From positions 1,142-65,141 of the forward strand of contig DASREB010000339.1 of assembly GCA_035652275.1 (NCBI GenBank): a stretch of DNA of 64,000 bases, in the 5' to 3' direction. The notes under the pieces are model-generated. The model worked only from the letters and a program-made list of their open reading frames with translations, did no database searches and was not told where the DNA came from. A program made the position numbers and the translations under genes. This stretch comes from Burkholderiales bacterium. Its GTDB lineage: Bacteria; Pseudomonadota; Gammaproteobacteria; Burkholderiales; SG8-39. This document shows positions 44,024 through 62,837 of this stretch, piece after piece (the stretch's first letter is position 1; every line of letters starts with the position of its first letter).

Positions 44024-46450
<2,427 letters not shown>

Positions 46451-46453
46451 GCC

Positions 46454-46726
46454 GTGAACAAAGCCGACCTGATCGAGCAAATCGCTCAGGCGGCCGAGAT
46501 TTCCAAATCGGCCGCAGAGCGCGCGGTCGATGCGCTCGTGAATTCCGTGAAGACGAGCCTGCGCAAAGGCGAGGACGTGACGCTGGTCGGCTTCGGCACG
46601 TTCTACGCCAGCACGCGTGCCGCGCGCACCGGGCGCAATCCGCGCACCGGCGAAGCGGTGGAGATCAAAGCGGCGAAGCTGCCGAAGTTCCGCGCTGGTA
46701 AGGCCCTGAAGGACGCGATAAACTGA
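46454..46726 (+). CDS. hupB: DNA-binding protein HU
   Basis: 90 aa. [11 protein letters not shown]...[28 protein letters not shown] is the canonical HU pattern. GTG start 3 nt after the lon stop. Confidence 0.93.
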
Positions 46727-46763
46727 CGCCCCTTTTGCGAATGGAAGTTTTCTTTCGCATCGG

Positions 46764-46838
46764 GGGTGCTTAGCTCAGCGGTAGAGCGCTGCCCTTACAA
46801 GGCAGATGTCGTAGGTTCGACCCCTACAGCACCCACCA
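46764..46838 (+). tRNA. tRNA-Val (anticodon TAC)
   Basis: 75 nt. Acceptor GGGTGCT/AGCACCC, anticodon arm CTGCC-CTTACAA-GGCAG, T-arm GTAGG-TTCGACC-CCTAC, CCA encoded. Confidence 0.9.
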
Positions 46839-46857
46839 TCGCAGTCTGCTGTGCTGA

Positions 46858-46934
46858 GGAGCGGTAGTTCAGTTGGTTAGAATACCGGCCTGTCACGCCG
46901 GGGGTCGCGGGTTCGAGTCCCGTCCGCTCCGCCA
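46858..46934 (+). tRNA. tRNA-Asp (anticodon GTC)
   Basis: 77 nt. Acceptor GGAGCGG/CCGCTCC, anticodon arm CCGGC-CTGTCAC-GCCGG, T-arm GCGGG-TTCGAGT-CCCGT, CCA encoded. Confidence 0.92.
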
Positions 46935-46940
46935 ATCCCA

Positions 46941-48164
46941 TCAAGCAGTTGCCCGCGGACTGTGTCTTTTCCGGCCGGTTGGTTGTGCTGAAATTGTGCT
47001 TGCCCCAACCTCGGCACGCACAGTCGCGGGGGCGGCGGCGTCGGTCTCGACCGCTTTCCCAGCCTTGAGCTCAGCGCGCCGAAGCGCGAGAGCCGCGTTC
47101 CACTTCGTTGCGAGTATTTCGGCGATAGGCCGCAGCGGCTCGATGTTCAGGTGGGGGTAGTCGTCCATCGCAGCCATCCCGCGCACGGTCCAGCCGCCTA
47201 GCCGCGCCCGCATCTCCGGGGTCACGCCTTCCTCGGTGAGCCACGTCTGCCCACAGTGCCTCATGGTGTGGAAGCAAACGTCGCCCATGCCGGCCTTGGC
47301 GCGCGCCTGTCGAAACGCCTTGGTGACCACCTGGGCGATCTTCTTGCCGCGCCACGTAAAGACGTAGACCGGGTGGCGGCTGCTCTTGCCATCCTTGTCC
47401 ACGGCCTCGTAGCGGCGCTTCAGGATCGCCATGGCGACCGGATTGAGCGGCACGTAGATCGGCTTGCCGGTCTTGGTGAGCCGGCCAGCGATCTGCACGG
47501 CGCGCTTTTCCCAATCGATCATGGACCACGCCAGGTCCGTCACGTTGGCCCTGCGGTGCATCGTCATCGCCCCGTACACCATCATGTCGGCTGTATGCGC
47601 CGGCATCCAGCTCCACTCGCGTTCGGCCTTGTTGAGGATGGTCTGCACCACGCGCACATACTTGTTCGCCGTCGTGTTGCACGACGCAGGACCCGACTTG
47701 TCTACCCGCACGAAGCCGCTCCCGTTCCTGATCCTGGAGGGATCAGGGCAGCGCAGCTTTCCGCTTTCGATGATCTCGGCAACCATCTCCCGAGTGATCT
47801 CGTTCAGATCCTTAATGTGCTTGAGATGCGGCCACCACCACGCCAGCCGCTGTGCTTCGTCACTCCACGACTTCATGGACTCGGAGGACTCGTCCTCGCG
47901 CCGCTGGCAGGCTTCGCGCCATGAGCGCGGGGCTTTGACCCCCATCTTCTTTGCGGTCCAGAGGTCGTTGCGCTTCTTCGCTACAAATTCCACGGCATCC
48001 GCGAGGACCCTCGTCGACGTGGGGTAGCGCTTTCCCTTGATCCGGGTCCGCCACTGCCGGCCCCGGAGATAGAGTCCGAGCTTTGCTGCGAGCCGGTACT
48101 CTGCGTCGCTGAGTCCTGCTTCAACCGCCCAAGCGGGCTTAACTCCTCTCGGTGACTTTGGCAT
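46941..48164 (-). CDS. tyrosine-type site-specific recombinase (phage/island integrase)
   Basis: 407 aa. N-terminal GLYLRGRQWRTRIKGKRYPTST arm-binding-like segment. Box I MHRRANVTDLAW, box II FHTMRHCGQTWL, LGGW...MDDYPHL with the catalytic Tyr. GGAGAG RBS before ATG 48164. Confidence 0.88.
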   Translation of the reverse strand: MPKSPRGVKPAWAVEAGLSDAEYRLAAKLGLYLRGRQWRTRIKGKRYPTSTRVLADAVEFVAKKRNDLWTAKKMGVKAPRSWREACQRREDESSESMKSWSDEAQRLAWWWPHLKHIKDLNEITREMVAEIIESGKLRCPDPSRIRNGSGFVRVDKSGPASCNTTANKYVRVVQTILNKAEREWSWMPAHTADMMVYGAMTMHRRANVTDLAWSMIDWEKRAVQIAGRLTKTGKPIYVPLNPVAMAILKRRYEAVDKDGKSSRHPVYVFTWRGKKIAQVVTKAFRQARAKAGMGDVCFHTMRHCGQTWLTEEGVTPEMRARLGGWTVRGMAAMDDYPHLNIEPLRPIAEILATKWNAALALRRAELKAGKAVETDAAAPATVRAEVGASTISAQPTGRKRHSPRATA

Positions 48165-48397
48165 AGCTGCTCTCCATTTCTTGATGTTGCGGAGGGCCGC
48201 AGTGCCAGCCGACGGTCCTCATACGGAAACCGCCAGAGCTTGCCAATTTTTCTGCCGCCTAATTCTCGCGCGTGCCTGCGAACTGTTTCTTCACACAGAC
48301 CCAACTGCTTCGCTTTCTCCTGAAGGGACACTTCTCGCAGTACCACAAGCGTGTCGCTCACACCCTCGTCGCGAGCCTCGAAGTCGCTGTAGTTCAC
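47981..48397 (-). CDS. excisionase-like HTH DNA-binding protein (HTH_17/MerR-like) with a long low-complexity tail
   Basis: VSLQEKAKQLGLCEETVRRHARELGGRKIGKLWRFP matches the Xis/AlpA-type HTH. The ORF runs on for ~75 more codons and overlaps the integrase 5' end by 184 nt in another frame. Confidence 0.55.
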   Translation of the reverse strand: MNYSDFEARDEGVSDTLVVLREVSLQEKAKQLGLCEETVRRHARELGGRKIGKLWRFPYEDRRLALRPSATSRNGEQLCQSHREELSPLGRLKQDSATQSTGSQQSSDSISGAGSGGPGSRESATPRRRGSSRMPWNL

Positions 48398-48516
48398 TTC
48401 ATTGGGTTCCTTTGGCGAGCTGAAAGCCGGAGCAATCTAGCCGCTGATGGCCGGCAGCGGAACCAACTGAGGCGTACTTAGGCGCGCTACGGCGTAGCGG
48501 GCAGGCAGGTAGACGG

Positions 48517-48626
48517 TCCGGAATGGACGGCGCTTTCCTCCGGATTAGACGATAATATAATCCGGTTTGGACGAACGCGCAATCCGGATTGGACGACTCG
48601 CAAATCCGAAATGGACGACCCCGCCC
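48517..48626 (+). repeat. array of five direct repeats in exact 22-bp register (core TCCGGAWTGGACGA), iteron/operator-like
   Basis: Cores start at 48517, 48539, 48561, 48583 and 48605: TCCGGAATGGACGG, TCCGGATTAGACGA, TCCGGTTTGGACGA, TCCGGATTGGACGA, TCCGAAATGGACGA. Confidence 0.9.
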
Positions 48627-48632
48627 TCAAAC

Positions 48633-49874
48633 ATGGCCAGCACTAAGGACAAACTGTTCGAGCGCTTCTCCGCGGAGCGCGTCAAAACCGCGCTACGGGA
48701 TACACCGGTCGTCATGGTCAATGGTCCGCGCCAGTGCGGCAAGACGACGCTGGCACGCCGCTTTGTGGAATGGGATAGAACCTACATCACCCTGGACGAC
48801 GACACGCAGCTCGCCGCTGCACGGGCCGATCCGGCCGGCTTCATGCGCGGGATTGAGCGAGCCGTCATCGACGAGATACCGCGCGCTCCGGAACTGCTGC
48901 GTGCCATCAAACGCTCGGTGGACGAGGACCGCCGGCCCGGGCGCTTTCTGCTGACTGGTTCGGCCAACCTACTGACGCTGCCCCAAGTGGCCGAGAGCCT
49001 GGCCGGCCGCATGGAAGTCGTAAATCTTCTGCCGCTCTCGCGGGCCGAGATACGCGGCACAAAACCGACATTCCTGGAGAAGACCTTCTCAGGCAAGGTC
49101 GCCAAGCCGCTTGAGACCTTGGTGGGTACAGAGCTTGTGGACGCCGTGTTGATCGGCGGCTATCCGGAGATGTTGACACGCGAGGATCCAAAGCGGCGCC
49201 AAGCCTGGGCGCGCGAATATGTAGAAGCGATCGTGCAACGCGACGTTCGCGATATTGCGGAAGTCGAGAGGCTGGAGCAGATGCCTCGCCTGCTCCGCGT
49301 GCTCGCGCACCATTCTGGACAACTCACCAACTTCATGCAAACCGGGGCAGAGATCAAACTCGATGCGAAGACAACGAGACGATACATCGGCGTACTCGAA
49401 CAGCTGTTCCTTTTGCGCCGCCTAGACCCATGGTTTCGAAATCGCCTTAAGCGGCTGGTCAAGACGCCCAAACTGCACTTCCTTGATGCTGGGTTACTGG
49501 CAGCGATCCTCGGCATAACCGACGAACGAATCGCGAAAGACCGTTCGATATTTGGGCCGGTGCTAGAGGCATTCGTCTTCTCGGAGATCATGAAACAAAC
49601 AGCCTGGCTCGATGGTACATACACGCTCCATCACTACCGGGACAAGGATCAGGATGAAGTCGACGTCGTCGTGGAGAACGATCGCGGTGAATTAGTCGGC
49701 CTCGAGATCAAGGCAGCTGCTACGGTCACCGCAGGCGACTTCAAGGGTCTGAGAAAGCTCGCCAACGCATCGCGCGACCGCCTTATGCTTGGCGCGGTTC
49801 TCTACGACGGCGACAGCATCGTGGGCTTCGGCGATCGCCTGTTTGCTGCTCCAATATCTTGCTTATGGGCGTGA
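48633..49874 (+). CDS. AAA+ ATPase with DUF4143-type region and a C-terminal PD-(D/E)xK-like motif (COG1373-type)
   Basis: Start at ATG 48633 (MASTKDK...). Walker A NGPRQCGKTTLA, Walker B AVIDEI, LLTGSANLL...ESLAGRM. C-terminus HHYRDKDQDEVDVVVEN...LVGLEIKAAA (D...E-x-K). Confidence 0.85.
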   Translation: MASTKDKLFERFSAERVKTALRDTPVVMVNGPRQCGKTTLARRFVEWDRTYITLDDDTQLAAARADPAGFMRGIERAVIDEIPRAPELLRAIKRSVDEDRRPGRFLLTGSANLLTLPQVAESLAGRMEVVNLLPLSRAEIRGTKPTFLEKTFSGKVAKPLETLVGTELVDAVLIGGYPEMLTREDPKRRQAWAREYVEAIVQRDVRDIAEVERLEQMPRLLRVLAHHSGQLTNFMQTGAEIKLDAKTTRRYIGVLEQLFLLRRLDPWFRNRLKRLVKTPKLHFLDAGLLAAILGITDERIAKDRSIFGPVLEAFVFSEIMKQTAWLDGTYTLHHYRDKDQDEVDVVVENDRGELVGLEIKAAATVTAGDFKGLRKLANASRDRLMLGAVLYDGDSIVGFGDRLFAAPISCLWA

Positions 49875-50213
49875 AGTTCCGAACTCGCCCATCGTTGTCC
49901 GAGGCCGCGGCAATCGGAGCGAGGTTTCTGTCGGGTGGCTCCGCGGCGAGGTGATGGACTGGCTTATTGCTCGACCACCGGTAGAACTAAACTGTCCGGC
50001 GCAGCTTTCGCGGCGGACAGATCCATCGAGACGATGCGACCCTTGGCGATGGCCGAGCCGGCGATGTATCCATACGCCGCGTTCGCCACGACGCCGCGTT
50101 CACCGACGGCTTTTCTGGTCAAGTCCGGCAAGTCTTTGCAACCGCGGAAGCCTGAGACGCTGATCGCCTGAATTATCGCCGACAGGAGCCCGGGAGGAGC
50201 GCGGCGGCGCGCA

Positions 50214-50390
50214 ATGCCCGGGCTTGCGCGTGCGCGCTTTGCTACGGACAAGAAGGTCTTCTTCTATCGCTATCGCTCCCAGGATGGCGCGCTACGCAAT
50301 CCGGCTCGGCGATGTCGGAGCTGACGCTGGCAAAGGCCCGCGACGCGGCTCTGCGCAAACGGCTGCAGCGTGACCTGGCGGTTCGGCGCG
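50214..50390 (+). pseudogene. remnant of a second (P4-type) integrase: N-terminal arm-binding segment only, frameshifted
   Basis: ARFATDKKVFFYRYRSQDGALR, then a frame change near 50297-50305, then SELTLAKARDAALRKRLQRD. This is the k.w.fRYr..Gk...lG......L.eAR pattern of DUF4102-type integrase N-termini. No catalytic domain follows. Confidence 0.45.
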
Positions 50391-50465
50391 CCCTGCTTTT
50401 ATCCCCGCTCAGTCCCGCTTCGCAGAAGGTGACAGGCTCGCGTCACCGCTTGGCACGGGTCGTGA

Positions 50466-50627
50466 AGCAACGGCGCATCTGCACGGCGAGCCGGGCGGGA
50501 CGTGAAAGCCGCGCACGGCGATGTGCGCGCGTTGCTTGCTGCTGGCGTGCTGCGCAGGAACGCGGTCGGAAAGATCGACTTTCCGCTCGATGCGGTGCAC
50601 GTCGATTTCGTGCTCAAAGCCGCATAG
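50466..50627 (+). pseudogene. C-terminal fragment of a winged-helix DNA-binding protein (antitoxin-like HTH family), no start codon
   Basis: Frame reads ...ARRAGRDVKAAHGDVRALLAAGVLRRNAVGKIDFPLDAVHVDFVLKAA*, preceded by an in-frame stop. Recognised from memory of similar small wHTH proteins, not verified. Confidence 0.3.
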
Positions 50628-50714
50628 CGGGCCTGTGTTGATGAGCTTGTGGAGCGGGTCCGACCTAGCGGCGTAGACTCTATACTCACCTTTCGCAGAT
50701 CCGAGGAGCGTGGC

Positions 50715-50960
50715 ATGGACGACGCCTCGAAGGACATCCGAGTATTGACCCATACCCAGCGCCTGGTCGCAGAAGAGCAGAAGCTTTTCGAGCACGGCTC
50801 GCTCACCGAGGAGCAGGGCCGGCGCCGGAAGGACCTGCAGGTCGAGCTCGACCAGTGTTGGGATCTGCTGCGCCAGCGTCGGGTGGCGCGCGACGCCGGT
50901 CACGATCCGTCGGCGGCGCATGTCCGGCCGCCGGAGATCGTCGAGAAATACATCGGCTGA
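50715..50960 (+). CDS. DUF2630 family protein (paralog 1)
   Basis: 81 aa from ATG 50715 (GAGGAG RBS). LVAEEQKLF...LQVELDQCWDLLRQRRVARDAGHDP...VEKYIG. A second copy is at 62576-62821. Confidence 0.75.
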   Translation: MDDASKDIRVLTHTQRLVAEEQKLFEHGSLTEEQGRRRKDLQVELDQCWDLLRQRRVARDAGHDPSAAHVRPPEIVEKYIG

Positions 50961-51085
50961 TCGCTGCTGTCCGCCCGCCGCGGACTCCTCGAGCGCGGCA
51001 TTGAAAGTTCCGCTTTCATGCGCCACGTCTCGCCGTGTCGCGGACGGCGTGACCCGCAAACGCGGCGCTGCGTTTCGTGCAAACC

Positions 51086-51600
51086 ATGACACGACGTGTT
51101 GCGGTATCGCGATAGTGCGAGCCATCGCGCAAGCCGATCATGCCCTTCCGTCCCGCGGCGTCACGAAAGGAAGTTCCGGTGCCCCCTGCAAGGCCTATTA
51201 ACTCTCGGCGCACGGGACCGGGGAAGATCGTTGGCGTTACTGATGAAGTCGCACGAGACCCATTCGCGATCCGGAGCACAATCGCTCGATGCCTGCCGCG
51301 CTCAAGAATGCCTTAGATGCCGGATCACGGCCTTACGGCAAGAACGTATGGAGCGGTAAGCCAGGCGCTGTGGTCAGCGCTTCGCCCGGAGCGATCGGGG
51401 GATTTGGTGCCAATCATCACCTCCGGCAATCGCTCGTCTTTTTGAACGTGCCGGCGATGCCGCAGCCGGAAGCCTATCTCGGAGGCGCCGACAAGCTTTT
51501 CGACGCGAGCGGTAAGCTCGTCAATGACGGCACGCGGAAATTCCTTCAGGGGTTCATGCAGGCCTATGCCGCATGGATCGCGGCGAACATAAAGGAGTGA
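51086..51600 (+). pseudogene. NADPH-dependent FMN reductase (ChrR/YieF-like), N-terminal half degraded
   Basis: The intact C-terminal 103 codons (51289-51600: MPAALKNALDAGSRPYG...GAIGGFGANHHLRQSLVFLNVP) match the family. Upstream, PEHNRS continues in frame, but MTRRVAVSR* (from ATG 51086) hits a stop and frame changes. Confidence 0.6.
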
Positions 51601-51605
51601 CATAG

Positions 51606-52370
51606 ATGGCACAGCGCGTATTAGTAACGGCGGGGGCTTCCGGCATAGGCAAGGAGATTGCGCGCGCGTTCGCGGCAAGTGCCGCCAAGGTTTGCGTCTG
51701 CGATATCGACGAGGCGGCGCTGCGCGCAGCCGCCAAGGACATCCCGGGCCTTATCACCAGGCTATGCGATGTTTCGAAACGGCGGGACATCGAGCGCATG
51801 GTTCCTGACGCCGTCGGTGCACTCGGCGGGCTCGACGTGCTGGTGAACAATGCCGGTATCTCGGGTCCGACCGCGCCGGTCGAGGCAATGGACCCGGATG
51901 CCTGGGAAAAGGTCATGCAAGTCGACCTCACCGGCACGTTCAACGTAACGCGCCTCGCCATCCCTCACCTGAAGAAATCGAGCGCCGGCGTCATCATCAA
52001 CATGTCTTCGGTAGCCGGCCGGTTCGGCTACGCGAACCGTAGTCCCTACTGCACTGCCAAGTGGGGGCTGATCGGCTTTACAAAGACGCTGTCCATCGAG
52101 CTCGGCGCGTACGGAATCCGCGCGAACGCGATACTTCCGGGCGCGGTGGCCGGGCCGCGCATCGAAAAGGTCTTCGAAGGGCGCGCGCAGGCAACGCACA
52201 AGCCGCTCGACGAGGTGCGCAAAGAGGCGATGGCGGCTCAATCGATCAAGAGGCTCGTCGAGCCCAAAGACATTGCCGCTCTCGCCGTTTTCCTTGCATC
52301 CGATGCGGCAAAGTCGATATCCGGCCAAATGTTGCCGATCGATAACGACATGCAGACGACGGGTGGATGA
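51606..52370 (+). CDS. short-chain dehydrogenase/reductase (SDR)
   Basis: 254 aa. VLVTAGASGIGKEIA, NNAGI, YCTAKWGL (Y-x3-K), IRANAILPGAV. Confidence 0.9.
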   Translation: MAQRVLVTAGASGIGKEIARAFAASAAKVCVCDIDEAALRAAAKDIPGLITRLCDVSKRRDIERMVPDAVGALGGLDVLVNNAGISGPTAPVEAMDPDAWEKVMQVDLTGTFNVTRLAIPHLKKSSAGVIINMSSVAGRFGYANRSPYCTAKWGLIGFTKTLSIELGAYGIRANAILPGAVAGPRIEKVFEGRAQATHKPLDEVRKEAMAAQSIKRLVEPKDIAALAVFLASDAAKSISGQMLPIDNDMQTTGG

Positions 52371-52420
52371 AGTGTCTAAGTGCAGGCGCGTGGGAATTGG
52401 CGCAAGCGGGCGCTTGATCG

Positions 52421-52873
52421 CTAGGGCCAGAGGATTGCGGAAAAGCCGAGGTGGTGCATGAGCTCGCGCGGGATGACAAGAGTGGCTGCGCGTTCGTTAC
52501 CGGGAGGAATGCCGTCGCCCGATCGGCCTCCGGAGACGGAGCGCGCGGCGAGCCGCTGGAAGGACTGCTCCACGGCCTGAATCGTCATCGGCTCGCCCGC
52601 CGGCACGCCGGCAGCGAGCGCGATCTCGCGAACGCGCACGTCGTCCGTCTGCAGGCGCAAGCCTTTTGCCGGCAAGGCTCGCACTCGGGCGATCTCGTCC
52701 TCTATCGCCGCGATGGCGTTCTCCAGTTCGAGCGACGATGGCGGATCGTGCTTGAGATGGTCGCGCGCGAGCGCCTTCCAGCCCAGGCCGTGCAAGAGGA
52801 GGGACGGCGCACCGGCTCCGTGCGGCTCGAGCACGGTGCGCTCGTCCTCGATGCGCAGCGCAAGTTCGGCCAT
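52421..52873 (-). CDS. hypothetical protein
   Basis: 150-aa ORF with ATG start, coding-like composition and no overlapping better ORF. No motif recognised. Confidence 0.45.
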   Translation of the reverse strand: MAELALRIEDERTVLEPHGAGAPSLLLHGLGWKALARDHLKHDPPSSLELENAIAAIEDEIARVRALPAKGLRLQTDDVRVREIALAAGVPAGEPMTIQAVEQSFQRLAARSVSGGRSGDGIPPGNERAATLVIPRELMHHLGFSAILWP

Positions 52874-52880
52874 GCTCGGG

Positions 52881-53435
52881 CTACTGCGCGAGCCCGATCT
52901 GCTTCATGAAGTCCTGGTTGTCCCAGAACAGCCACTCGTGGTCCATCACGCCGCCCTTCCAGTGGCCGATGGTGGCCATGCCGATGGCGAAGCGCTTGCC
53001 GGTCGGCTGGATCGATTTGCCGTCCGGCGTCGGCATCGGCTTCGTGAACGTGCCGGTCATGACGCCGGTCACGGCGGTAAAGCTTCCGGAGCCGAAGCGG
53101 ACCGGGTGCACCTTGATGGTGATGTCGGGCGCGAAGACGAAGAGCGCCTTCAGGTCCTCGATGTGCCGGTCGATGCCCTTCGTCTCATGACCGTCCGGCC
53201 AGGTGACGACGATATCGCTGGCATGGCTCTCGTGCAGACGATCCCACTTCTGGTTGCTGAAGACGTCGAAGTCGAGCACATCGAACACCTTCAGGTTGCG
53301 CTCGACCTTGGGTGCCTGTTTCTCGTGCGCAGGCGCAGGTGTCGTGGGGTTCTCGGCCTGCGTCTGAGCAAGCGCATAGTTGGAAGTGGCGCCGACGACG
53401 GCGGCGATCAAGGCAATGCGATACGTGCTTTTCAT
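52881..53435 (-). CDS. secreted SnoaL-like ester cyclase family protein
   Basis: 184 aa. Signal peptide MKSTYRIALIAAVVGATSNYALAQ. FAPDITIKVHP...TGVMTGTF...QPTGKRF...EWLFWDNQDFMKQIGL follows the ester-cyclase pattern. Confidence 0.7.
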   Translation of the reverse strand: MKSTYRIALIAAVVGATSNYALAQTQAENPTTPAPAHEKQAPKVERNLKVFDVLDFDVFSNQKWDRLHESHASDIVVTWPDGHETKGIDRHIEDLKALFVFAPDITIKVHPVRFGSGSFTAVTGVMTGTFTKPMPTPDGKSIQPTGKRFAIGMATIGHWKGGVMDHEWLFWDNQDFMKQIGLAQ

Positions 53436-53455
53436 GATTGTTCCTTTGTAGAGAG

Positions 53456-54052
53456 TTAGCGAAGCTTGGCCGCCACCTGGGCGATGTACCTGCCTTGGTA
53501 GCGTGCGCCTTCGAGCTCGACCTTCGACGGCTGGCGGCTGCCGTCACCGCCGGCGATGGTCGACGCGCCGTAGGGCGAGTTGCCCATCACTTCCGTGTGG
53601 CCCATCTGGCCGGCGAAGGCGTAAGGCAGGCCGGCGATGATGAAACCGAGGTGCAGGAGCACGGGGTGGAAGGTGAGGATCGTCGATTCCTGGCCGCCGT
53701 GCTGCGTCGCAGACGACGTGAACACTCCCGCCAGCTTGCCGACCAGCGCGCCGCGCATCCAGAGGCCGCCGGCCTGGTCCAAGAAGTTCTTCATCTGCCC
53801 GGCCATGTTGCCGAAGCGTGTCGGCGTGCCGAAGATGATCGCGTCGTAGCTGGCGAGCTCCTCGACCGTGGCGACCGGCGCTTTCTGCTCGAGCTTGAAG
53901 CCGGATTTCTTCGCGATCTCCTGGGGCACCGTCTCCGGCACGCGCTTCACCGTGACTTCGGCGCCGGCATCGCGTGCGCCGGCTGCGACTTCCTCGGCCA
54001 TGCGCTCGATGTGGCCGTACGAGGAGTAATAGAGGACGAGAACCTTAGCCAC
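53456..54052 (-). CDS. wrbA: NAD(P)H:quinone oxidoreductase WrbA
   Basis: GTG 54052 after [25 protein letters not shown] flavodoxin-like start, [17 protein letters not shown]. Confidence 0.9.
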
Positions 54053-54515
54053 GGGCGCTTCCTTTGCGTGAATCGAGCGAGAATCTTCCGGCGCCGTGCG
54101 CAACGACGTGCAGCAACCCGCCGACGAGCGCGAGATTCTTCATGAAGTGGATTGTCTGGTTGAGCGCCTGGTCGGCCGGTACGGCCCAGAAGTTGTGGAA
54201 GATGGGCGTAACCAGCAACGTGAACAGGCCGAGCACGAGGGCGGCCGCACGCGTCTGGTAGCCGGCGGCGAGCGCGAGGCCGCCCGCGAGCTCGGCGAGT
54301 CCCGCGACGTAGACCAGCAGGCCGGCGAGCGGCACGTGATAGGCCTGCATGTAGGCGACGTTGCCGGCGGTGCCGAGGAAGAGCTTATCGATGCCGGACC
54401 AGATGAACATCGCCGCGAGCGCGATGCGCGCCGCGAGATCCACACTGTCGGTCAGCGCGAAATTGCGCTCGGCGGCGCGGTAGGTGGGGGCGTAGGTACT
54501 AGAGGCTGATTGCAT
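54045..54515 (-). CDS. DoxX family membrane protein
   Basis: 156 aa from ATG 54515 (AAGGAGA RBS). [19 protein letters not shown] and [20 protein letters not shown] are typical DoxX segments. 8-nt overlap with wrbA. Confidence 0.8.
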
Positions 54516-55347
54516 GAGCTGCTTCTCCTTCTGAGTCGATGGTCGAGGTTGCGTGCGGCTGCGCACTGAAGACGAAGGCGTCCATTGCGAGCACGCCATA
54601 CGTCGTAGAGCGCACCGGGTGATGCAGGATCCCGCTGTCCGGCGCCGCGCCGAGCGCGGCGAAAAGCGGCAGAAGGTGTTCGTCGGTGGGATGCGCCCTT
54701 TCGGCAAAAGGCGCGCGGCGCCGGTAGTCGAGGAGGGCTGGCACGTCGTTCGCGCTCAGGCGCTCGAGCACCCACGCGCGGAATTCCTCTACATAGGGCT
54801 CCGCGCCGTCCTCGTCGGGCCGCGAGGGATCGAACTCGTACAGGTTGTGCGTGAAGCTGCCGGAGAAGACGAGCAGCACGCCCTCGTCGGCGAGCGGCGC
54901 GAGGAGCCGCCCGAGCTCGAACTGGCGCTTCGGCGCTTCGCCGGGCTGCAGCGAAAGCTGGAAGGCCGGCACGTCGGCATGCGGGTACATGAGCTGCAGC
55001 GGCACCCACGCGCCGTGATCGAGGCCGCGGCGCTCGTCGATGCGCGTCGGCCGGCCGGCAGCGCTCAGGCGCTCGGCGACGCGGCGCGCCACTAAGGGCG
55101 CGCCGGGCGGCTCGTAGCGCAGATCGAAGAGCGCCGGGTCGAACGGCCCGAAATCATGGATCGCGCTCATCTGCGGCGCACCGCTGACGATTGGGCGCGC
55201 GCTCGTCCAGTGTGGCGACACGACGAGGATGGCGCTCGGCGCGGGCAGGGCGAGCGCGACCTGGCGAAGAGCCGGGCCGACTTCTCTGGGCCGCAGCGCG
55301 AGGGTCGGCGCGCCGTGGGAGACGAAGATCGATGGCAGGCGAGTCAT
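54499..55347 (-). CDS. class III extradiol ring-cleavage dioxygenase (LigB/YgiD, 4,5-DOPA dioxygenase-like)
   Basis: Start at ATG 55347 (MTRLPSIFVSHGAPT). LVVSPHW, GLDHGAWVPL, GSFTHNL, EHLLPLF are family motifs. Confidence 0.85.
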   Translation of the reverse strand: MTRLPSIFVSHGAPTLALRPREVGPALRQVALALPAPSAILVVSPHWTSARPIVSGAPQMSAIHDFGPFDPALFDLRYEPPGAPLVARRVAERLSAAGRPTRIDERRGLDHGAWVPLQLMYPHADVPAFQLSLQPGEAPKRQFELGRLLAPLADEGVLLVFSGSFTHNLYEFDPSRPDEDGAEPYVEEFRAWVLERLSANDVPALLDYRRRAPFAERAHPTDEHLLPLFAALGAAPDSGILHHPVRSTTYGVLAMDAFVFSAQPHATSTIDSEGEAAHAISL

Positions 55348-55405
55348 GCCACCCACTGTAAGGGCCGGCCCGCCACGGAAACAGGGCACCGGGCGGAAAT
55401 CATTG

Positions 55406-55430
55406 TTACGATCCGCGTAATAATCGGATC
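55406..55430. promoter_or_regulatory. candidate LysR-type binding site (T-N11-A dyad) in the divergent dioxygenase/LysR promoter region
   Basis: TTACG-atccg-CGTAA (55406-55420) overlapping a second dyad GATCCG-N9-CGGATC (55410-55430). Confidence 0.4.
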
Positions 55431-55438
55431 GCCGCCCG

Positions 55439-56410
55439 ATGGATTTCATCCACGCCTTGCGGGTTTTCGTTCGCGTTGTCGACGCGGGAAGCTTCGTGCG
55501 CGCCGCCGAGCAGCTCGACACCTCGAACGCGGCCGTGACGCGGCAGGTGGCCGCGCTGGAGAAGCACCTCGGCGCGCGGCTTCTCAACCGCACCACGCGC
55601 AAGATCTCGCTCACGAGCTCCGGTGAAGCGTTTGTCGACAAGGCGCGGCGGATCCTCGAGGAGATCGCCGAAGCCGAGAGCATCGCCGGCGAACGCCGCA
55701 CGGCGCCCGCGGGCGTCCTGCGCGTCAGCGCGCCGCTCTCGTTTGGCGTCGGTCACCTGTCACGGCTGCTGCCGGGTTTCCGCGCCCGCTATCCGAAGGT
55801 GCGGCTGGACATCGACCTCACCGATCGCGTGGCAGACCTCGCGGCGGAGGGCATCGATGTCGCGCTGCGCATCGCCCGCGAGCCGCGCCGCAATCTCGTG
55901 GCGCGGCCAATCGCCTGCGTGCGGCTGGTGGTATGCGCTTCGCCGATCTATCTCAAGCGCCGCGGCACGCCGGCGCATCCTTCCGAGCTGGCGCAGCACG
56001 AGACGCTCAGCTATTCCTACCTTTCAGCGGGCGACGTCTGGGAGCTGCAGCGCCCGGGCGAGGAGCCGGTCAAGGTCCAGATCCGTCCTTCGGTCCATGC
56101 CACGAACGGCGACCTGCTGCGCGAGCTTGCGCTCGCAGGCGGCGGCATCATCCTGCAGCCGAGCTTCATCGTCGGCGCGGACCTGATGCGCGGGACGCTG
56201 GTGCCGCTGCTGACCGATTGGAAGGCGCTTGAGCTGACGCTCTACGCGGTGTATCTCAGCCAGCGCCAGCTCTCGCCGCGGGTGCGAGCGTTCATCGACT
56301 ATCTCGTCGAATCGATCGGCGCGGAGCCCTATTGGGAAAACTGGAAGCCCATGCCGGCTCGAAAGTCGGCGAAGAAGACGCTGCCGCAGTCCGGGAAACG
56401 GAAGGCCTAA
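55439..56410 (+). CDS. LysR family transcriptional regulator
   Basis: 323 aa. N-terminal HTH FVRVVDAGSFVRAAEQLDTSNAAVTRQVAALEKHLG. Divergent from the dioxygenase-doxX-wrbA operon. Confidence 0.92.
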   Translation: MDFIHALRVFVRVVDAGSFVRAAEQLDTSNAAVTRQVAALEKHLGARLLNRTTRKISLTSSGEAFVDKARRILEEIAEAESIAGERRTAPAGVLRVSAPLSFGVGHLSRLLPGFRARYPKVRLDIDLTDRVADLAAEGIDVALRIAREPRRNLVARPIACVRLVVCASPIYLKRRGTPAHPSELAQHETLSYSYLSAGDVWELQRPGEEPVKVQIRPSVHATNGDLLRELALAGGGIILQPSFIVGADLMRGTLVPLLTDWKALELTLYAVYLSQRQLSPRVRAFIDYLVESIGAEPYWENWKPMPARKSAKKTLPQSGKRKA

Positions 56411-56458
56411 ACGCGCTCGACCGGGGGCCCGCGCTGATCGAGAACCGGCTTGCGCACG

Positions 56459-57823
56459 CTATTTCAATCCTCCGCCTAGGGCCGAATAGAGGTCGACGGC
56501 ACTGGTGTCGCGCAGGACCTGCGCCTGGACCATGCCCTGTTCTGCCGCGAAGAGCTGGCGCTGCGCGTCAAGGTAGTCGAGCGAACCGGCGACGCCGCCC
56601 TTGTAGAGCTGCTCGGTGAGCTTGACGCGCTCGCGCTCGGCGTCGCGCAGCCGGGTCTGGGCGGCGAGCTCCTGGCCGACGGCATCGCGCGCGGCGAGCG
56701 CGTCGGCCACCTCGCGGAATGCAATCTGGATCGCCTGCTCGTACTGCGCCACAGCGATGTTCTTTCGCGCTTCCGCGACGTCGAGGTTCGCCTGGTTGGC
56801 GCCGGCCGTGAAGATGGGCAGCACGAGCTGCGGCACGAAGGACCAGACGCCCGTGCCGGCGCCGAACAGCCCGCTCAGCTCGCCCGAGGCGGTGCCCAGG
56901 CTCGCGGTGAGCGAGATGCGCGGGAAAAACGCGGCACGCGCGGCGCCGATGTTTGCATTCGATGCGATCAGGCGCTGCTCGGCTGCGCGGATGTCGGGGC
57001 GCGACAGGAGGAGATCGGACGGCAGGCCGGCGCCGATGTCGGCGGCAAGCAGCTGCGCGCCGAGCGGGCGCGCCGGCGGCAGGTCCGCGAGCGGCGTGCC
57101 GGCCAACAGCACGAGCGCGTTCATCGCCTGCGCCTGCTGTCGCGAGAGCGACGCGACCGAGGCGCGCGCCGCTTCCACAAGCGATTGCGCCTGACGCAGC
57201 TCGAGCGCCGAGGAGGCGCCGGCGTCGAAGCGCTGGCGCGTGAGCTCGAGGGATTTCTCGCGCGTGGCGAGCGCGCGCCGGGCCAGCTCGAGCTGCTCGG
57301 CGAAACCGCGCTCGGCGAGGTAGGACTTCGCCACCTGCGACACCAGCCCGAGCTGCAACGTGCGCTGCGTCTCTCCGACTGCCAGATATTGCGCGAGCGA
57401 AGCGCCGGTGAGGTTGCGCACGCGGCCGAAGACGTCGAGTTCGTAGGCGGCGACCCCTACGCCGACCTGGTACTGCGTGCTGTCCACCGCCCCGCCGGTG
57501 CGGCTGACCGATGCCGCCCCGGACACCGCCGGCAGCAGGTCGGCGGCCTGAATGCGGTACAGACCGCGCGCCTCCTCGATGCGCAGCACCGCGACGCGCA
57601 GGTCGCGGTTGTTCTGCAGCGCGAGCTCGATGATCCTGCGCAGGCGCTCGTCACTGAAGAACTCGCGCCATGCGATGTCGACGGCACGCCGTCCCGAGGC
57701 CGCCGCGGTTTCGCCCGGAAACGTGGCAGCCACCGGCGCCGCCGGTCTCTCGTAGGGCGGCGTGAGGTTGCAGCCCACCGTCGCGGCGGCGAGCGTTGCG
57801 GCGGCGTAGCGAAAGCGCGTCAT
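56459..57823 (-). CDS. RND efflux outer-membrane lipoprotein (NodT/OprM family)
   Basis: Start at ATG 57823 (ATGA overlap with the pump gene). Lipobox LAAATVGC. Repeated TolC-like coiled-coil pattern. Confidence 0.9.
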   Translation of the reverse strand: MTRFRYAAATLAAATVGCNLTPPYERPAAPVAATFPGETAAASGRRAVDIAWREFFSDERLRRIIELALQNNRDLRVAVLRIEEARGLYRIQAADLLPAVSGAASVSRTGGAVDSTQYQVGVGVAAYELDVFGRVRNLTGASLAQYLAVGETQRTLQLGLVSQVAKSYLAERGFAEQLELARRALATREKSLELTRQRFDAGASSALELRQAQSLVEAARASVASLSRQQAQAMNALVLLAGTPLADLPPARPLGAQLLAADIGAGLPSDLLLSRPDIRAAEQRLIASNANIGAARAAFFPRISLTASLGTASGELSGLFGAGTGVWSFVPQLVLPIFTAGANQANLDVAEARKNIAVAQYEQAIQIAFREVADALAARDAVGQELAAQTRLRDAERERVKLTEQLYKGGVAGSLDYLDAQRQLFAAEQGMVQAQVLRDTSAVDLYSALGGGLK

Positions 57824-60800: not shown

Positions 60801-60906
60801 GGTACTGCGCGACCGGAAGGCGGGTGATGGAGATCGCGCCCGTGACGATGATGAAAAGTGCGACCACCCACGCGAATACCGGGCGGTCGGTGAAGAAATT
60901 CGCCAC
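57820..60906 (-). CDS. RND multidrug efflux permease (HAE1, AcrB/MexB-like)
   Basis: 1028 aa. MANFFTDRPVFAWVVALF N-terminus, 12-TM plus two large periplasmic loops. Confidence 0.95.
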   Translation of the reverse strand: MANFFTDRPVFAWVVALFIIVTGAISITRLPVAQYPEIAPPTVVIRATYPGANAQTLDQSVTSIIDQQLNGAEGLLYIESQSESNGAASIRASFQPGTNADLAAVDLQNRLKRVEARLPQAVVQQGVQVSKSTSNFLMVVSLSSSDPKIDPIALGDYATRNILDELKRIPGVGEATLFGSERAMRVWIDPAKLEGLRLGAADVVAAIRAQNLQVAAGALGELPVPAEQPIAAGISVRGQLATPEAFGEIVLRASPGGSAVRLHDVARVELGAQSYATSARINGRPAVGIGIQQTPTGNALETADAVKAKMQELSRQFPPGVGYAVPFDTSIFVRLSIAAVVRTLVEAVALVFLVMFLFLQNWRATLIPTVVVPIALLGAFAAMAAFGFSINVLTMFGMVLAIGIVVDDAIVVIENVERIMAEDRLAPREATHKAMGQITGAVVGMTLVLISVFIPMAFFGGAVGAIYRQFSLSLVGAIAFSALMALTLTPALCASFLKPGTHAPRKGFFGGFNRGFDRTARGYQGLVARLLRRTGRTMLVYAVVAAVAVFLYLRLPTGFLPSEDQGVVLTNVQLPAGASANRTIEAMQQVEQFYLKQPAVENLVSVIGFSFSGSGANAGLAFISLKPWDEREESADELVRRAFGTFVATIRDAIVFPLNPPPIPSLGNAAGFSMRLQSRSGMDYAAFTAARDRLLAAAAQSPRLAQVRAESLEDAPQVQVDIDRAKAAAQGLVMADLGTALGAAFGSVYVNDYPAEGRQQRVMLQAEAGARMEPDDIARLTVRNVRGEMVPFSSFSSARWVTAPVQLTRYNGYQAFKISGQAAPGLSTGEAMAEMERLTAELGTGIGLEWTGTSYEERLTGAQTPLLYSLSALAVFLLLAALYESWSIPIAVMLVVPLGVLGTALLTGARGYDNDVYFNVGMLAVMGLSAKNAILIVEFARDLHADGKELVVATLEAIALRFRPILMTSLAFMLGVLPLAVASGASSASQRAIGTAVIGGMLTGTVLAVIFVPAFFVVVSRLFNRKKK

Positions 60907-60912
60907 CTGCTC

Positions 60913-62034: not shown

Positions 62035-62127
62035 GCCGTCCTCCTCGTCCGCTTGTCGAGCAAGCAGGTTACACAGCTACCGGCCTTCGGGGAAGCGCCG
62101 CGCTATTGCGCGCCGACCGGTGTAGTG

Positions 62128-62821: not shown

Positions 62822-62837
62822 CGTTTCCCTCCTCTCA

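What the first reader, a model, noticed from the sequence alone, without database searches (positions are those of the whole stretch)
48517..48626. Five exactly phased 22-bp direct repeats (core TCCGGAWTGGACGA) in front of the island's ATPase gene
Core copies begin at 48517, 48539, 48561, 48583 and 48605. That is a constant 22-bp register, about two helical turns, so all sites face the same side of the helix. The cores are TCCGGAATGGACGG, TCCGGATTAGACGA, TCCGGTTTGGACGA, TCCGGATTGGACGA and TCCGAAATGGACGA. They are separated by 8-bp variable spacers. Spacer 2 (TAATATAA) is the most AT-rich, -10-like piece of the region. The array fills the divergent gap between the Xis-like HTH gene (starts at 48397, minus strand) and the AAA+ ATPase gene, and it ends 7 nt before the ATPase ATG. 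22 is not a multiple of 3, so this is not a peptide repeat. The spacers are far too short for a CRISPR array. The array is 1.6 kb from the tRNA core, so it is not the integrase P' arm. This architecture matches iterons of a replication origin or a cooperative operator array, yet no Rep gene is visible.
Basis: seen in the sequence. Interest (0 to 1): 0.72.

Follow-up and report, generated by a model that had tools for sequence, protein, structure and literature searches.

The report
Private repeat array of ATPase-nuclease gene
The five phased 22-bp repeats are real, but they belong to the adjacent ATPase-nuclease gene (a very common, uncharacterised candidate phage-defence gene) rather than to the genomic island. 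Relatives of that gene in many bacterial phyla carry such an array, with the repeat sequence changing as the protein changes, so the array is most likely the protein's own binding and control site.

Summary
Observation confirmed: five 22-bp-phased units (A/T)ATCCGrAwTrGACGr start at 48515, 48537, 48559, 48581 and 48603. A sixth, degenerate unit holds the ATG at 48633.

The array is not an island, Xis or integrase feature.
- A pattern scan of 185,579 species genomes found the same phased array in many phyla. In 74 of 121 arrays it lies directly upstream of, and on the same strand as, a homologue of the window's AAA_14-DUF4143 ATPase (PADLOC PDC-S01).
- Only the window's own lineage has the integrase and HTH.
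- A 90%-identical ATPase in an unrelated context shares DNA with the window exactly from the first repeat to the stop codon.

A gene-first sample (41-74% identity) shows 22/23-bp periodicity upstream of the start in 58 of 71 loci, against 4 of 71 in an intragenic control. The unit sequences differ and track the protein clade, not the host.

An exact TATAAT sits at a unit junction in 45 of 59 close relatives (0 of 59 controls). An AlphaFold model (pLDDT 88.7) shows AAA+, a winged helix and a PD-(D/E)xK nuclease.

Best reading (about 0.6): an iteron-like, self-specific operator or assembly array bound by the ATPase itself, covering its own promoter and start codon. The replication-origin reading is not supported. 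No prior description was found.

The parts
48515..48536 (+). Repeat unit 1 (GGTCCGGAATGGACGG + spacer). It lies upstream of and over the -35-like hexamer.
   Evidence: PWM score 17.6.
48537..48558 (+). Repeat unit 2 (CCTCCGGATTAGACGA + spacer). Its core occupies the 16-bp spacer between the -35-like and -10-like hexamers.
   Evidence: PWM score 18.8.
48559..48580 (+). Repeat unit 3 (AATCCGGTTTGGACGA + spacer). Its first 3 nt complete the TATAAT.
   Evidence: PWM score 22.7.
48581..48602 (+). Repeat unit 4 (AATCCGGATTGGACGA + spacer). This is the consensus copy and contains the palindrome CAATCCGGATTG.
   Evidence: PWM score 27.2 of a maximum 27.3.
48603..48624 (+). Repeat unit 5 (AATCCGAAATGGACGA + spacer).
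   Evidence: PWM score 25.3.
48625..48646 (+). Degenerate sixth unit in register (CCTCAAACATGGCCAG...). It carries the ATPase start codon 48633-48635 at unit positions 9-11.
   Evidence: The register of the start codon is conserved in relatives. The projected start lies 8 or 30 nt after the start of the last strong unit in most of the relatives with 60% identity or more, which I call class A in the full report.
48534..48539 (+). Putative -35 hexamer TTTCCT. It reads TTGCCT in close relatives.
   Evidence: Sequence reading. This is inference only: the consensus scan found no promoter here.
48556..48561 (+). Putative -10 hexamer TATAAT at the junction of units 2 and 3.
   Evidence: An exact TATAAT is present in 45 of 59 distinct relatives with 60% identity or more, against 0 of 59 intragenic controls. 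Its positions are quantised at -11-22k from the start codon; the window's copy is at -77.
48633..49874 (+). ATPase-nuclease gene (413 aa). It has Walker A GPRQCGKTT (residues 31-39) and Walker B D80-E81, and it is the conserved partner of the array.
   Evidence: Pfam AAA_14 E=1.8e-25 and DUF4143 E=2.1e-46. PADLOC PDC-S01 model PDLC04790 E=1.7e-172. DNA homology with L144 runs exactly 48517-49874.
49260..49487 (+). Predicted winged-helix domain (about residues 210-285). The putative recognition helix is 245-257 (KTTRRYIGVLEQLF) and the basic wing is 265-279.
   Evidence: AlphaFold2 model with alignment A1, pLDDT 88.7, pTM 0.90, topology H-H-H-strand-strand. The helix motif co-varies with the repeat unit type. 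The domain assignment is an inference from topology.
49530..49817 (+). PD-(D/E)xK nuclease domain (about residues 300-395). The motif is D344 ... E358-I-K360.
   Evidence: DUF4143 is listed in the PD-(D/E)XK superfamily (PMC3424549). D344 and K360 are invariant and E358 nearly invariant in 86 sequences. The model shows helix-strand-strand-strand-helix-strand.

Best explanation
The array is the private cis-element of the adjacent AAA_14-winged-helix-PD-(D/E)xK ATPase gene (PADLOC candidate defence gene PDC-S01, subfamily PDLC04790). Array plus gene form one inherited and transferable module.

Proposed mechanism. The ATPase recognises each 16-bp unit through its winged-helix domain. Because the units are head-to-tail and two helical turns apart, AAA+ to AAA+ contacts let five or six protomers assemble cooperatively along one face of the DNA, as DnaA or iteron-binding Rep proteins do.

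The array covers the gene's own promoter:
- unit 1 lies at and upstream of the -35;
- unit 2 lies between the -35 and the -10;
- the TATAAT sits at the junction of units 2 and 3;
- units 3-5 lie in the leader, and a degenerate sixth unit lies on the start codon.

Occupancy should therefore shut the gene off, which would be autorepression of a potentially toxic nuclease. Anything that removes or remodels the oligomer would de-repress it.

What is shown: the array, its phasing, its conserved link and register with the ATPase gene, its co-variation with the protein clade, the embedded TATAAT, and the domain architecture. What is inferred: that the ATPase is the binder, that binding is cooperative, and that the outcome is autorepression.
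For: 1. Array-to-gene link. 74 of 121 phased arrays found by a DNA-only scan of one genome per species lie immediately upstream of, and on the same strand as, a homologue (40-72% identity) of the window ATPase. Of the rest, many look like chance matches, some are cut by the locus edge, and some sit next to internally deleted ATPase pseudogenes.
2. Gene-to-array link. Loci were fetched by protein only, at 41-74% identity. In the 152 bp around the start (140 bp upstream plus 12 bp) the best self-similarity lag is 22 or 23 bp in 58 of 71 loci, against 4 of 71 for an intragenic control. The z-score is at least 3 in 37 of 71, all at lag 21-24, against 1 of 71.
3. Co-variation. Only relatives with about 64% identity or more, plus a 44-51% group I call class B, carry the window's core. 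Other clades carry other units at the same 22-23-bp phase: TTTCAATyGGTCG, ATTCCCGAATTTACG, TTCCAATTAGC, TTTAAAwTrGACGG, GGTTgCA..AGCCG, ATTAywCATTyC, TCCGCATATGCA and others. The unit type follows the putative recognition-helix motif and not the host. Rhizobiaceae plasmids alone carry four types.
4. Module boundary. A 90%-identical ATPase lying between dctM and an alcohol dehydrogenase gene, with no integrase, aligns to the window exactly over 48517-49874, that is first repeat to stop codon. In all-against-all comparisons, alignment 5' ends peak at the first unit (172 pairs within 5 nt) and 3' ends at the stop codon (415 pairs).
5. No other conserved neighbour. Integrase and HTH occur only in the window's own lineage, and the flanking genes differ from locus to locus.
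6. Promoter inside the array. Homology stops at the first unit, so the promoter must lie within the array. An exact TATAAT occurs at unit junctions in 45 of 59 close relatives against 0 of 59 controls, at positions quantised by 22 bp.
7. The start codon is in fixed register with the units.
8. The protein can plausibly bind DNA. The AlphaFold model has pLDDT 88.7 with a helix-helix-helix-strand-strand winged-helix topology and a basic wing between the AAA+ and nuclease domains. The closest solved folds are AAA+ DNA-handling proteins: 2qen, MuB, RuvB, clamp loader and ORC.
9. Core positions are nearly invariant and spacers nearly free, both in the pattern-first and in the gene-first position-weight matrices.
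Against: - There are no binding or expression data, so the link between the ATPase and the array is correlative.
- Co-variation across clades is confounded by shared ancestry.
- Class A (KTTRKY helix) and class B (KTVDRW helix) differ in the putative recognition helix yet share nearly the same core. The readout may therefore involve the wing or other elements.
- The consensus promoter scan found no sigma-70 promoter in 48100-48900. The window's -35 matches only 3 of 6 positions, and no Shine-Dalgarno sequence is evident before ATG 48633.
- Autoregulation alone does not explain second arrays directly downstream of the gene (4 of 63) or solo arrays with no gene (about 10 loci).
- 13 of 71 gene-first loci showed no 22/23-bp periodicity.
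- The winged-helix assignment rests on model topology. Pfam labels the region only as DUF4143, and no sequence relative has a solved structure.
Confidence: 0.6

Rival explanations
1. Recombination or mobility site. The array is the cis-site through which the array-plus-gene cassette excises and integrates. Recombination between two direct arrays would pop out a circle carrying one array and the gene. A circle could re-enter at a solo array. The nuclease and ATPase may catalyse or stimulate this.
For: - The module boundary lies exactly at the first unit and the stop codon.
- The same module sits in unrelated contexts at 90% identity.
- An array-gene-array arrangement occurs in L001, L057, L105 and L089.
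- L086 and L120 carry a 3-unit solo array at the very site where L001 has about 12 units, the ATPase gene and then 4 units.
- About 10 solo arrays and several internally deleted genes were seen.
Against: - Only 4 of 63 complete genes have a downstream array.
- No inverted second end was found, and no recombinase or transposase domain.
- Solo arrays and double arrays are equally explained by tandem duplication followed by ordinary homologous deletion.
- Sharp alignment ends are also expected if only the functional sequence (operator plus ORF) is conserved.
Confidence: 0.12
2. Assembly or parking platform rather than a regulator. The array nucleates or stores the ATPase-nuclease oligomer on the chromosome, for example as an inactive, primed complex that is released or activated by invading DNA. 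Transcriptional effects would be secondary.
For: - The evidence for cognate binding is the same as for the best explanation.
- Head-to-tail units match head-to-tail AAA+ assembly.
- Arrays of up to about 12 units (L001), downstream arrays and solo arrays exceed what a promoter operator needs.
- A distant family member in Thermus (TT_P0211) is induced 6.6-fold by plasmid DNA (PMC4406477).
Against: - The embedded, phase-locked TATAAT and the overlap with the start codon point to expression control.
- There are no data on the oligomeric state.
- The defence function of PDC-S01 is itself unvalidated (PMC12988326).
Confidence: 0.12
3. Promoter or host-factor element not bound by the ATPase. The units would be reiterated promoter or UP-like elements, or sites for a host regulator, carried along with the gene.
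For: A TATAAT occurs at unit junctions, sometimes several per array. Direct repeats at 11- or 22-bp phase are typical of OmpR/PhoB-type regulators (my own knowledge).
Against: - The same unit is found in Acidobacteriota, Alpha-, Beta- and Gammaproteobacteria, Binatia, Cyanobium and Nitrospirae. Different units are found within one host family, tracking the ATPase clade.
- No conserved regulator gene lies nearby.
- The invariant positions (TCC, GACG) are not promoter hexamers, and the geometry does not fit. TTGGAC lies 5 nt upstream of the same-unit junction TATAAT and 27 nt upstream of the next one, against the usual spacing of about 17.
Confidence: 0.08
4. The repeats are iterons of a replication origin for the excised island or a plasmid-like element, with the AAA+/winged-helix ATPase acting as an Orc1/Cdc6-like initiator.
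For: The 22-bp phased direct repeats lie next to a gene for a winged-helix protein, as in pPS10, R6K or RK2 (my own knowledge). ORC subunits appear among the structural neighbours.
Against: - There is no Rep-family domain.
- There is no DnaA box within 5 kb.
- GC content never drops below 0.50 around the array, so there is no unwinding element.
- The modules are common in chromosomes, and on large plasmids, some of which are PLSDB-typed with replicons of their own.
- The array overlaps the promoter and start codon.
- The family is multi-copy in genomes (PMC13356809).
Confidence: 0.03
5. RNA-level element. The repeats act in the 5' leader of the ATPase mRNA, through structure or protein binding on RNA.
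For: If the TATAAT at 48556 is the -10, units 3-5 are transcribed.
Against: - There is no Rfam match at E up to 1.
- The predicted fold is no better than shuffles (z = -0.8).
- Units upstream of the -10 would not be transcribed, yet they are equally conserved.
Confidence: 0.03

Closest known systems
Iteron-Rep modules of theta plasmids (pPS10 RepA, R6K pi, RK2 TrfA, F RepE)
   Same: Three to seven direct repeats of 17-22 bp at about 22-bp phase, lying next to the gene of the winged-helix protein presumed to bind them. Repeat sequence and protein diverge together. Copy number of repeats varies. (The properties of the plasmid systems are from my own knowledge; the array's properties are.)
   Different: - The protein is an AAA+/winged-helix/PD-(D/E)xK fusion, not a Rep_3-type initiator.
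- There are no DnaA boxes and no AT-rich region.
- The array spans the promoter and start codon instead of flanking an origin.
- The modules are chromosomal and multi-copy.
DnaA with DnaA-box arrays (including dnaA autoregulation) and archaeal Orc1/Cdc6 with ORB elements
   Same: An AAA+ protein with a C-terminal helix-turn-helix or winged-helix domain that oligomerises head-to-tail on same-orientation sites placed next to its own gene. ORC, MuB, RuvB and clamp-loader folds are the structural neighbours.
   Different: There is no sequence relationship beyond the AAA+ fold. A nuclease domain is present. The period is 22-23 bp. There is no evidence of DNA melting or replication.
P2 Cox / 186 Apl / lambda Xis binding arrays
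   Same: Arrays of same-orientation sites between divergent genes near an integrase. This is what the local context of the window suggests.
   Different: Those arrays accompany the recombination directionality factor. Here the array is found without any Xis or integrase outside the window's own lineage, and it lies 1.58 kb from the tRNA-Asp end.
Multi-site transposon ends (Tn7 TnsB sites, Mu, IS21)
   Same: Repeated binding sites of about 22 bp at the edge of a transferable unit, with an AAA+ protein involved.
   Different: There is no transposase and no inverted array at the other end: 0 of 63, with 4 of 63 having a direct downstream array.
PDC-S01 (PADLOC candidate defence gene; Pfam AAA_14 + DUF4143; COG1373)
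   Same: The window gene is a full-length, high-scoring member.
   Different: In the papers I could search, the family is described only as a single gene of unknown mechanism. I found no mention of an associated repeat array.

Membership tests
Iteron-type replication origin | Three or more direct repeats of 17-22 bp at about 22-bp phase | tested here: met
   Five units at exactly 22 bp.
Iteron-type replication origin | Adjacent gene for a Rep initiator of a known Rep family | tested here: not met
   Pfam and NCBIfam give only AAA_14/DUF4143 for the ATPase, and phage integrase and a weak HTH_17 for the neighbours.
Iteron-type replication origin | DnaA boxes and an AT-rich unwinding element next to the repeats | tested here: not met
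   The nearest TTATCCACA-like site (1 mismatch) is at 42550. GC content in 60-bp windows stays at or above 0.50 over 48000-49000.
Iteron-type replication origin | Supports autonomous replication | not testable with these tools
   This needs a replication assay. Circumstantially unlikely: the same module is common in chromosomes and on large plasmids.
PDC-S01 / AAA_14-DUF4143 ATPase-nuclease (the partner gene) | AAA_14 and DUF4143 domains above the Pfam gathering scores | tested here: met
   89.8 bits against a cutoff of 27, and 158 bits against a cutoff of 28.1.
PDC-S01 / AAA_14-DUF4143 ATPase-nuclease (the partner gene) | Match to a PADLOC PDC-S01 model | tested here: met
   PDLC04790, E=1.7e-172, residues 7-413.
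PDC-S01 / AAA_14-DUF4143 ATPase-nuclease (the partner gene) | Anti-phage activity | not testable with these tools
Autogenous operator array (sites bound by the product of the downstream gene) | Sites overlap the gene's own promoter and start | tested here: inconclusive
   A phase-locked TATAAT lies inside the arrays (45 of 59 against 0 of 59) and the start codon is in unit register. However, no transcription start is mapped and the consensus scan is negative.
Autogenous operator array (sites bound by the product of the downstream gene) | Gene product has a sequence-specific DNA-binding domain | tested here: inconclusive
   The confident AlphaFold model shows a winged-helix topology. There is no Pfam HTH call and no solved relative.
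Autogenous operator array (sites bound by the product of the downstream gene) | Site sequence co-varies with the protein across relatives | tested here: met
   More than 10 unit types appear, each tied to a protein clade or helix motif.
Autogenous operator array (sites bound by the product of the downstream gene) | Demonstrated binding and repression | not testable with these tools
   This needs EMSA or footprinting and a reporter assay.
Xis/Cox-type directionality-factor or integrase arm-site array | Co-occurs with the directionality factor or integrase in relatives, and lies within a few hundred bp of the att core | tested here: not met
   Integrase and HTH homologues occur only in the window's own lineage. 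The array is 1.58 kb from the tRNA-Asp 3' end.
Transposon end with reiterated transposase sites | Inverted counterpart array at the other end, and a transposase gene | tested here: not met
   0 of 63 have an inverted downstream array. No transposase domain is in the module.
CRISPR array | Repeats of 23 bp or more separated by unique spacers of 26 bp or more | tested here: not met
   The units are 16 bp with 6-bp spacers.

The most novel reading that the evidence does not exclude
The array is more than an operator. It would be the nucleation, identity and mobility site of a self-contained AAA+/winged-helix/nuclease cassette.

Each clade would carry a private 'iteron code'. The oligomer assembled on the array would hold the nuclease in check. 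Array-to-array recombination, possibly stimulated by the nuclease, would move array-plus-gene circles into solo arrays that act as landing pads.

A further step: the unit pairs seen inside phage genes (L153, L149, L148) could be natural targets or decoys of such proteins. That would link the self-array to recognition of foreign DNA.
Probability: 0.12. Interest if true: 0.9.

Novelty: new variant of a known kind. Interest (0 to 1): 0.72.

Why it matters
AAA_14-DUF4143 proteins (COG1373, PADLOC PDC-S01) are reported as the fourth most common 'defence system' call across prokaryotes and the most frequent single locus in rumen genomes. They have no known mechanism and no experimental validation (PMC12988326, PMC13356809).

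A conserved, clade-specific, phase-locked DNA array attached to the gene gives this family its first concrete, testable molecular handle. It provides:
- a predicted cognate DNA ligand for the winged-helix domain;
- a predicted autoregulatory circuit;
- a natural set of orthogonal protein and site pairs for specificity swaps.

It also corrects the annotation logic for such islands. The repeats next to int and xis are cargo-gene regulatory DNA, not att or origin elements. If the array also mediates cassette movement, it would help explain how this family became so widespread.

Tried and rejected
- blastn of 48380-48700 against plasmid and phage collections gave no match. The array is too short and divergent for this route, so I switched to a degenerate two-unit pattern scan.
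- A search for an attR copy of the tRNA-Asp 3' end found none in the window. A general direct-repeat search of 46700-64000 gave only chance families. The island's far end is therefore undefined.
- The consensus promoter and terminator scan gave no promoter.
- The Rfam search and RNA folding of the array were negative, so the RNA reading was set aside.
- The single-sequence AlphaFold run was unusable (pLDDT 38). It was repeated with an 86-sequence alignment.
- The PDB sequence search gave no hit. Foldseek gave only generic AAA+ neighbours. Pfam on the isolated middle domain gave only DUF4143.
- DnaA-box and AT-richness tests for an origin were negative.
- tblastn of the window integrase and HTH against all fetched loci hit only the window's own lineage, so the Xis/integrase-operator idea was rejected.
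- Literature searches (DUF4143, COG1373, PDC-S01, guilt-by-embedding, AAA_14 with direct repeats, Pfam accessions) found nothing on repeats upstream of these genes. This is absence in the searchable library, not proof of novelty.
- An internal sigma-70 promoter built from TTGGAC plus the junction TATAAT was considered and rejected, because the spacing would be 5 or 27 nt.
Full report
**1. The observation**

Reading 48200-48900 confirms five copies of a 14-nt core at 48517, 48539, 48561, 48583 and 48605, spaced by exactly 22 bp.
- With up to 2 mismatches the core occurs six times in the 64-kb window, five of them here. Shuffles give 0.91 +/- 0.90, and none of 100 reaches six.
- Tandem Repeats Finder reports period 22, and the repeat finder recovers the same register.
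- A position-weight matrix (PWM) built from related arrays scores the five units 17.6-27.2 out of a maximum 27.3. It finds nothing else above 8 in the window.
The consensus is (A/T)ATCCG(G/A)A(T/A)T(G/A)GACG(A/G) followed by 6 nearly free positions.
- A sixth, degenerate unit (48625-48646) carries the ATG at 48633.

**2. Local context**

- tRNA-Val and tRNA-Asp lie at 46764-46934.
- A tyrosine integrase lies at 46941-48164 on the minus strand (Pfam Phage_integrase, E=1.8e-15).
- An ORF at 47981-48397 on the minus strand has sub-threshold excisionase/HTH_17 similarity.
- The array follows, and then a 413-aa protein at 48633-49874 with AAA_14 and DUF4143 domains.
- That protein matches PADLOC's candidate defence family PDC-S01 (model PDLC04790, E=1.7e-172).
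- DUF4143 is classed in the PD-(D/E)XK nuclease superfamily with unknown function (PMC3424549).
- No copy of the tRNA-Asp 3' end was found downstream.

**3. What the array belongs to**

I scanned one genome per species (185,579 species) for two cores 22 bp apart, fixing only the invariant bases.
- The hits carry the same unit in Acidobacteriota, Alpha-, Beta- and Gammaproteobacteria, Binatia, Cyanobium, Nitrospirae, Gemmatimonadales and others, in arrays of 2-7 units. One array reaches about 12 units.
- 74 of 121 phased arrays lie directly upstream of, and on the same strand as, a homologue of the window ATPase at 40-72% identity.
- Many of the others look like chance matches with unrelated sequence (for example Streptomyces). 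Some are arrays cut by the locus edge. Some are arrays followed by ATPase genes with internal deletions: L023, L025, L080, L084, L013 and L018.
- None of these loci has a homologue of the window integrase or HTH. Across all roughly 240 loci fetched, those two occur only in the window's own lineage.

**4. Gene-first control**

The scan above selected on the array, so I also fetched 80 metagenomic loci by the protein alone, at 41-74% identity.
- In the 152 bp around the start (140 bp upstream plus 12 bp) the strongest self-similarity lag is 22 bp in 43 loci and 23 bp in 15. That is 58 of 71 usable loci, against 4 of 71 for an intragenic control.
- 37 of 71 exceed shuffles by z of at least 3, all at lag 21-24, against 1 of 71 for the control.
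- Fourteen plasmid-borne homologues examined individually behave the same way down to 32% identity, except a 5'-truncated Thermus copy with no usable upstream region. The four homologues at 33% identity or below that were examined have single palindromes (Moraxella, Cereibacter) or nothing obvious (Thermus HB5018, Trichlorobacter).

**5. Co-variation**

I call the relatives with 60% identity or more class A, and the 44-51% group class B.
- Only relatives with about 64% identity or more, plus class B, carry the window's core. Class B reads ATTCCGrATTGGACG, with the start codon at unit positions 1-3 instead of 9-11.
- Other clades carry other units at the same phase: TTTCAATyGGTCG, ATTCCCGAATTTACG, ATTCCAGAATTTATG, TTCCAATTAGC, TTTAAAwTrGACGG, AATCCATTTTGGACGA, CAAATGGACG, GGTTgCA..AGCCG (23 bp), ATTAywCATTyC (23 bp), TCCGCATATGCA and CTACTAGnAGATTTTT.
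- When loci are sorted by the sequence of the putative recognition helix (residues 244-252), each helix motif goes with one unit type.
- The unit follows the protein clade, not the host. The same unit spans phyla, while Rhizobiaceae plasmids alone carry four types.
- Within each array the units are kept alike while arrays of different clades have diverged beyond recognition. This is the pattern expected for sites read by a co-evolving protein.
- Phylogenetic non-independence remains a caveat. Classes A and B share a core despite different helix residues.

**6. Module boundaries**

- The closest relatives (86-92% identity) mostly sit in the same order: Lon, HU, tRNA, int, xis-like ORF, array, ATPase. 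Homology to the window ends at the ATPase stop codon. Beyond it lie merB/merA, an IS, or parA-parB-DUF2857 genes.
- The 90%-identical P0004 lies between dctM and an alcohol dehydrogenase gene with no integrase. Its DNA aligns to the window over exactly 48517-49874, from the first base of the first core to the stop codon.
- In 876 pairwise comparisons of 61 modules, alignment 5' ends pile up at the first unit (172 within 5 nt) and 3' ends at the stop codon (415 within 5 nt).
- Array plus ORF is therefore the conserved, relocatable unit. Because homology stops at the first unit, the gene's promoter must lie inside the array.

**7. Promoter and register**

- In 45 of 59 distinct class A loci there is an exact TATAAT within 160 bp upstream, against 0 of 59 intragenic controls.
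- Its positions are quantised at -11-22k: 29 at -55, 7 at -77, 5 at -33. It is formed by the end of a spacer plus the first AAT of the next unit.
- In the window it is 48556-48561 (-77). Sixteen bp upstream lies TTTCCT, which reads TTGCCT in relatives. The core of unit 2 thus fills the promoter spacer.
- The generic scan did not call a promoter, so this remains an inference.
- The projected start codon lies 8 or 30 nt (8 + 22) after the start of the last strong unit in most class A loci, and it lies in an ATG/GTG-modified unit in class B.

**8. The protein**

- A single-sequence model failed. With an 86-sequence alignment AlphaFold2 gives pLDDT 88.7 and pTM 0.90.
- The model shows an AAA+ core (Walker A residues 31-39, Walker B D80-E81) and a lid helix.
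- A three-helix, two-strand winged-helix unit follows at about residues 210-285, with a basic wing (PWFRNRLKRLVKTPK).
- A PD-(D/E)xK fold completes the protein (D344, E358, K360).
- Foldseek's best PDB match is the Pyrococcus Walker ATPase 2qen, followed by Card1, a plant NLR complex, MuB filaments, clamp-loader subunits, RuvB and ORC. No solved sequence relative exists.

**9. Interpretation**

- The only partner that travels with the array across phyla is the ATPase, and the array's sequence changes with it. The ATPase's own winged helix is therefore the most economical reader of the units.
- Head-to-tail sites two helical turns apart fit head-to-tail AAA+ oligomerisation, as in DnaA or iteron-bound Rep.
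- The array blankets the -35, spacer, -10, leader and start codon, so the expected output is autorepression.
- I put this at about 0.6. Binding, cooperativity and repression are all inferred.

**10. What this does not explain**

- 4 of 63 complete genes have a second, same-orientation array just after the stop codon: L001, L057, L105 and L089.
- About ten loci have solo arrays with no ATPase.
- L086 and L120 are syntenic with L001. They carry a 3-unit solo array at the site where L001 has about 12 units, the ATPase gene and then 4 units.
- Homologous deletion between tandem modules explains this. So does integration and excision of array-plus-gene circles. I cannot separate the two readings.
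- This is the basis of the mobility rival (0.12) and of the novel case.

**11.

- 'Cooperative operator array' is right in form, but the proposed binders (HTH, integrase) and the attribution to the island are not supported.
- 'Iterons of an origin' fails on the Rep gene, DnaA boxes, an AT-rich region and genomic distribution.
- RNA-level function is unsupported.

**12. Novelty**

- In the searchable literature PDC-S01/DUF4143/COG1373 appears only as an abundant single-gene candidate of unknown mechanism. [quoted passage not shown]
- It is also the most frequent single locus in rumen genomes (PMC13356809). The source preprint does not mention it in its main text.
- I found no mention of upstream repeat arrays.
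- One expression datum fits regulated expression: a Thermus AAA_14/DUF4143 gene rises 6.6-fold when plasmid DNA is present (PMC4406477).
- I classify the finding as a new variant of a known kind: an iteron-like, autogenous operator array, here attached to an AAA+/winged-helix/nuclease family.

Noticed in passing
L153 8531-8565 (-); L149 2575-2609 (-); L148 7591-7625 (-); L158 9081-9115 (-): The same two-unit, 22-bp-phased motif occurs in viral contigs with no ATPase gene: 17 hits falling into about five sequence groups, all inside long open reading frames. Examples are an NlpC/P60-like ORF in L149 and the 3' end of an ORF just upstream of a 499-aa ORF that may be a terminase in L153. In L153 both units are perfect at the seven positions not fixed by the search (score 9.5 of 9.5 each; the chance of reaching at least 5 is about 0.005 per unit). 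Whether these are targets, decoys or coincidence is unknown.
   Followed up: partly
L001 4948-5226 and 6466-6553; L086 5550-5615; L120 5330-5395; also L057, L105, L089: Array-gene-array arrangements occur, and syntenic solo arrays sit at the same chromosomal site in related Acidobacteria. Array length ranges from 2 to about 12 units; part of L001's first array is N-masked in the collection.
   Followed up: partly
L023, L025, L080, L084, L013, L018: Several arrays are followed by ATPase genes with large internal deletions that join the N-terminus to the nuclease end, or by short N-terminal stubs. The gene decays often while the array persists.
   Followed up: partly
window 49875-51288: No convincing gene follows the ATPase for about 1.4 kb; only a DUF2630-like 81-aa call appears in the copy L121. 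Close relatives diverge from the window exactly at the ATPase stop codon and carry merB/merA, IS elements or parA-parB-DUF2857 genes there. No attR repeat of tRNA-Asp was found in the window. The island here looks truncated or decayed.
   Followed up: partly
window 47607 (integrase 46941-48164, minus strand): The window integrase is 407 aa, whereas all close relatives are 438 aa. The DNA alignments break at window 47607, which suggests a 93-bp deletion inside the integrase gene.
   Followed up: no
window 47981-48397 (-): The Xis-like HTH ORF overlaps the integrase start by 184 nt. It stays open and 80-92% identical in integrase-bearing relatives, yet the gene callers of the source records did not call it. 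Its HTH_17 and excisionase matches are below the curated cut-offs.
   Followed up: partly
L230 (upstream of its ATPase); L125 2885-2945; L130 upstream of 1501: Many unit types contain a short internal palindrome: CCGG, CAATTG, GCATATGC. L230 has two fully palindromic 21-bp units 22 bp apart. Two homologues at 30% identity or below have a single palindrome instead of an array. The family seems to span a continuum from palindromic operator to direct-repeat array.
   Followed up: no
window 48567-48632: A TTG at 48567 opens a frame continuous with the ATPase ORF and reads through units 3-5. It coincides with the transcription start predicted from the TATAAT at 48556. No Shine-Dalgarno sequence precedes ATG 48633.
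   Followed up: no
window 44024-46934: Lon protease (808 aa), HU (90 aa), tRNA-Val and tRNA-Asp lie immediately upstream of the integrase. The same order is kept in the relatives L137 and L141, which marks this as a recurrent tRNA-Asp integration site.
   Followed up: partly
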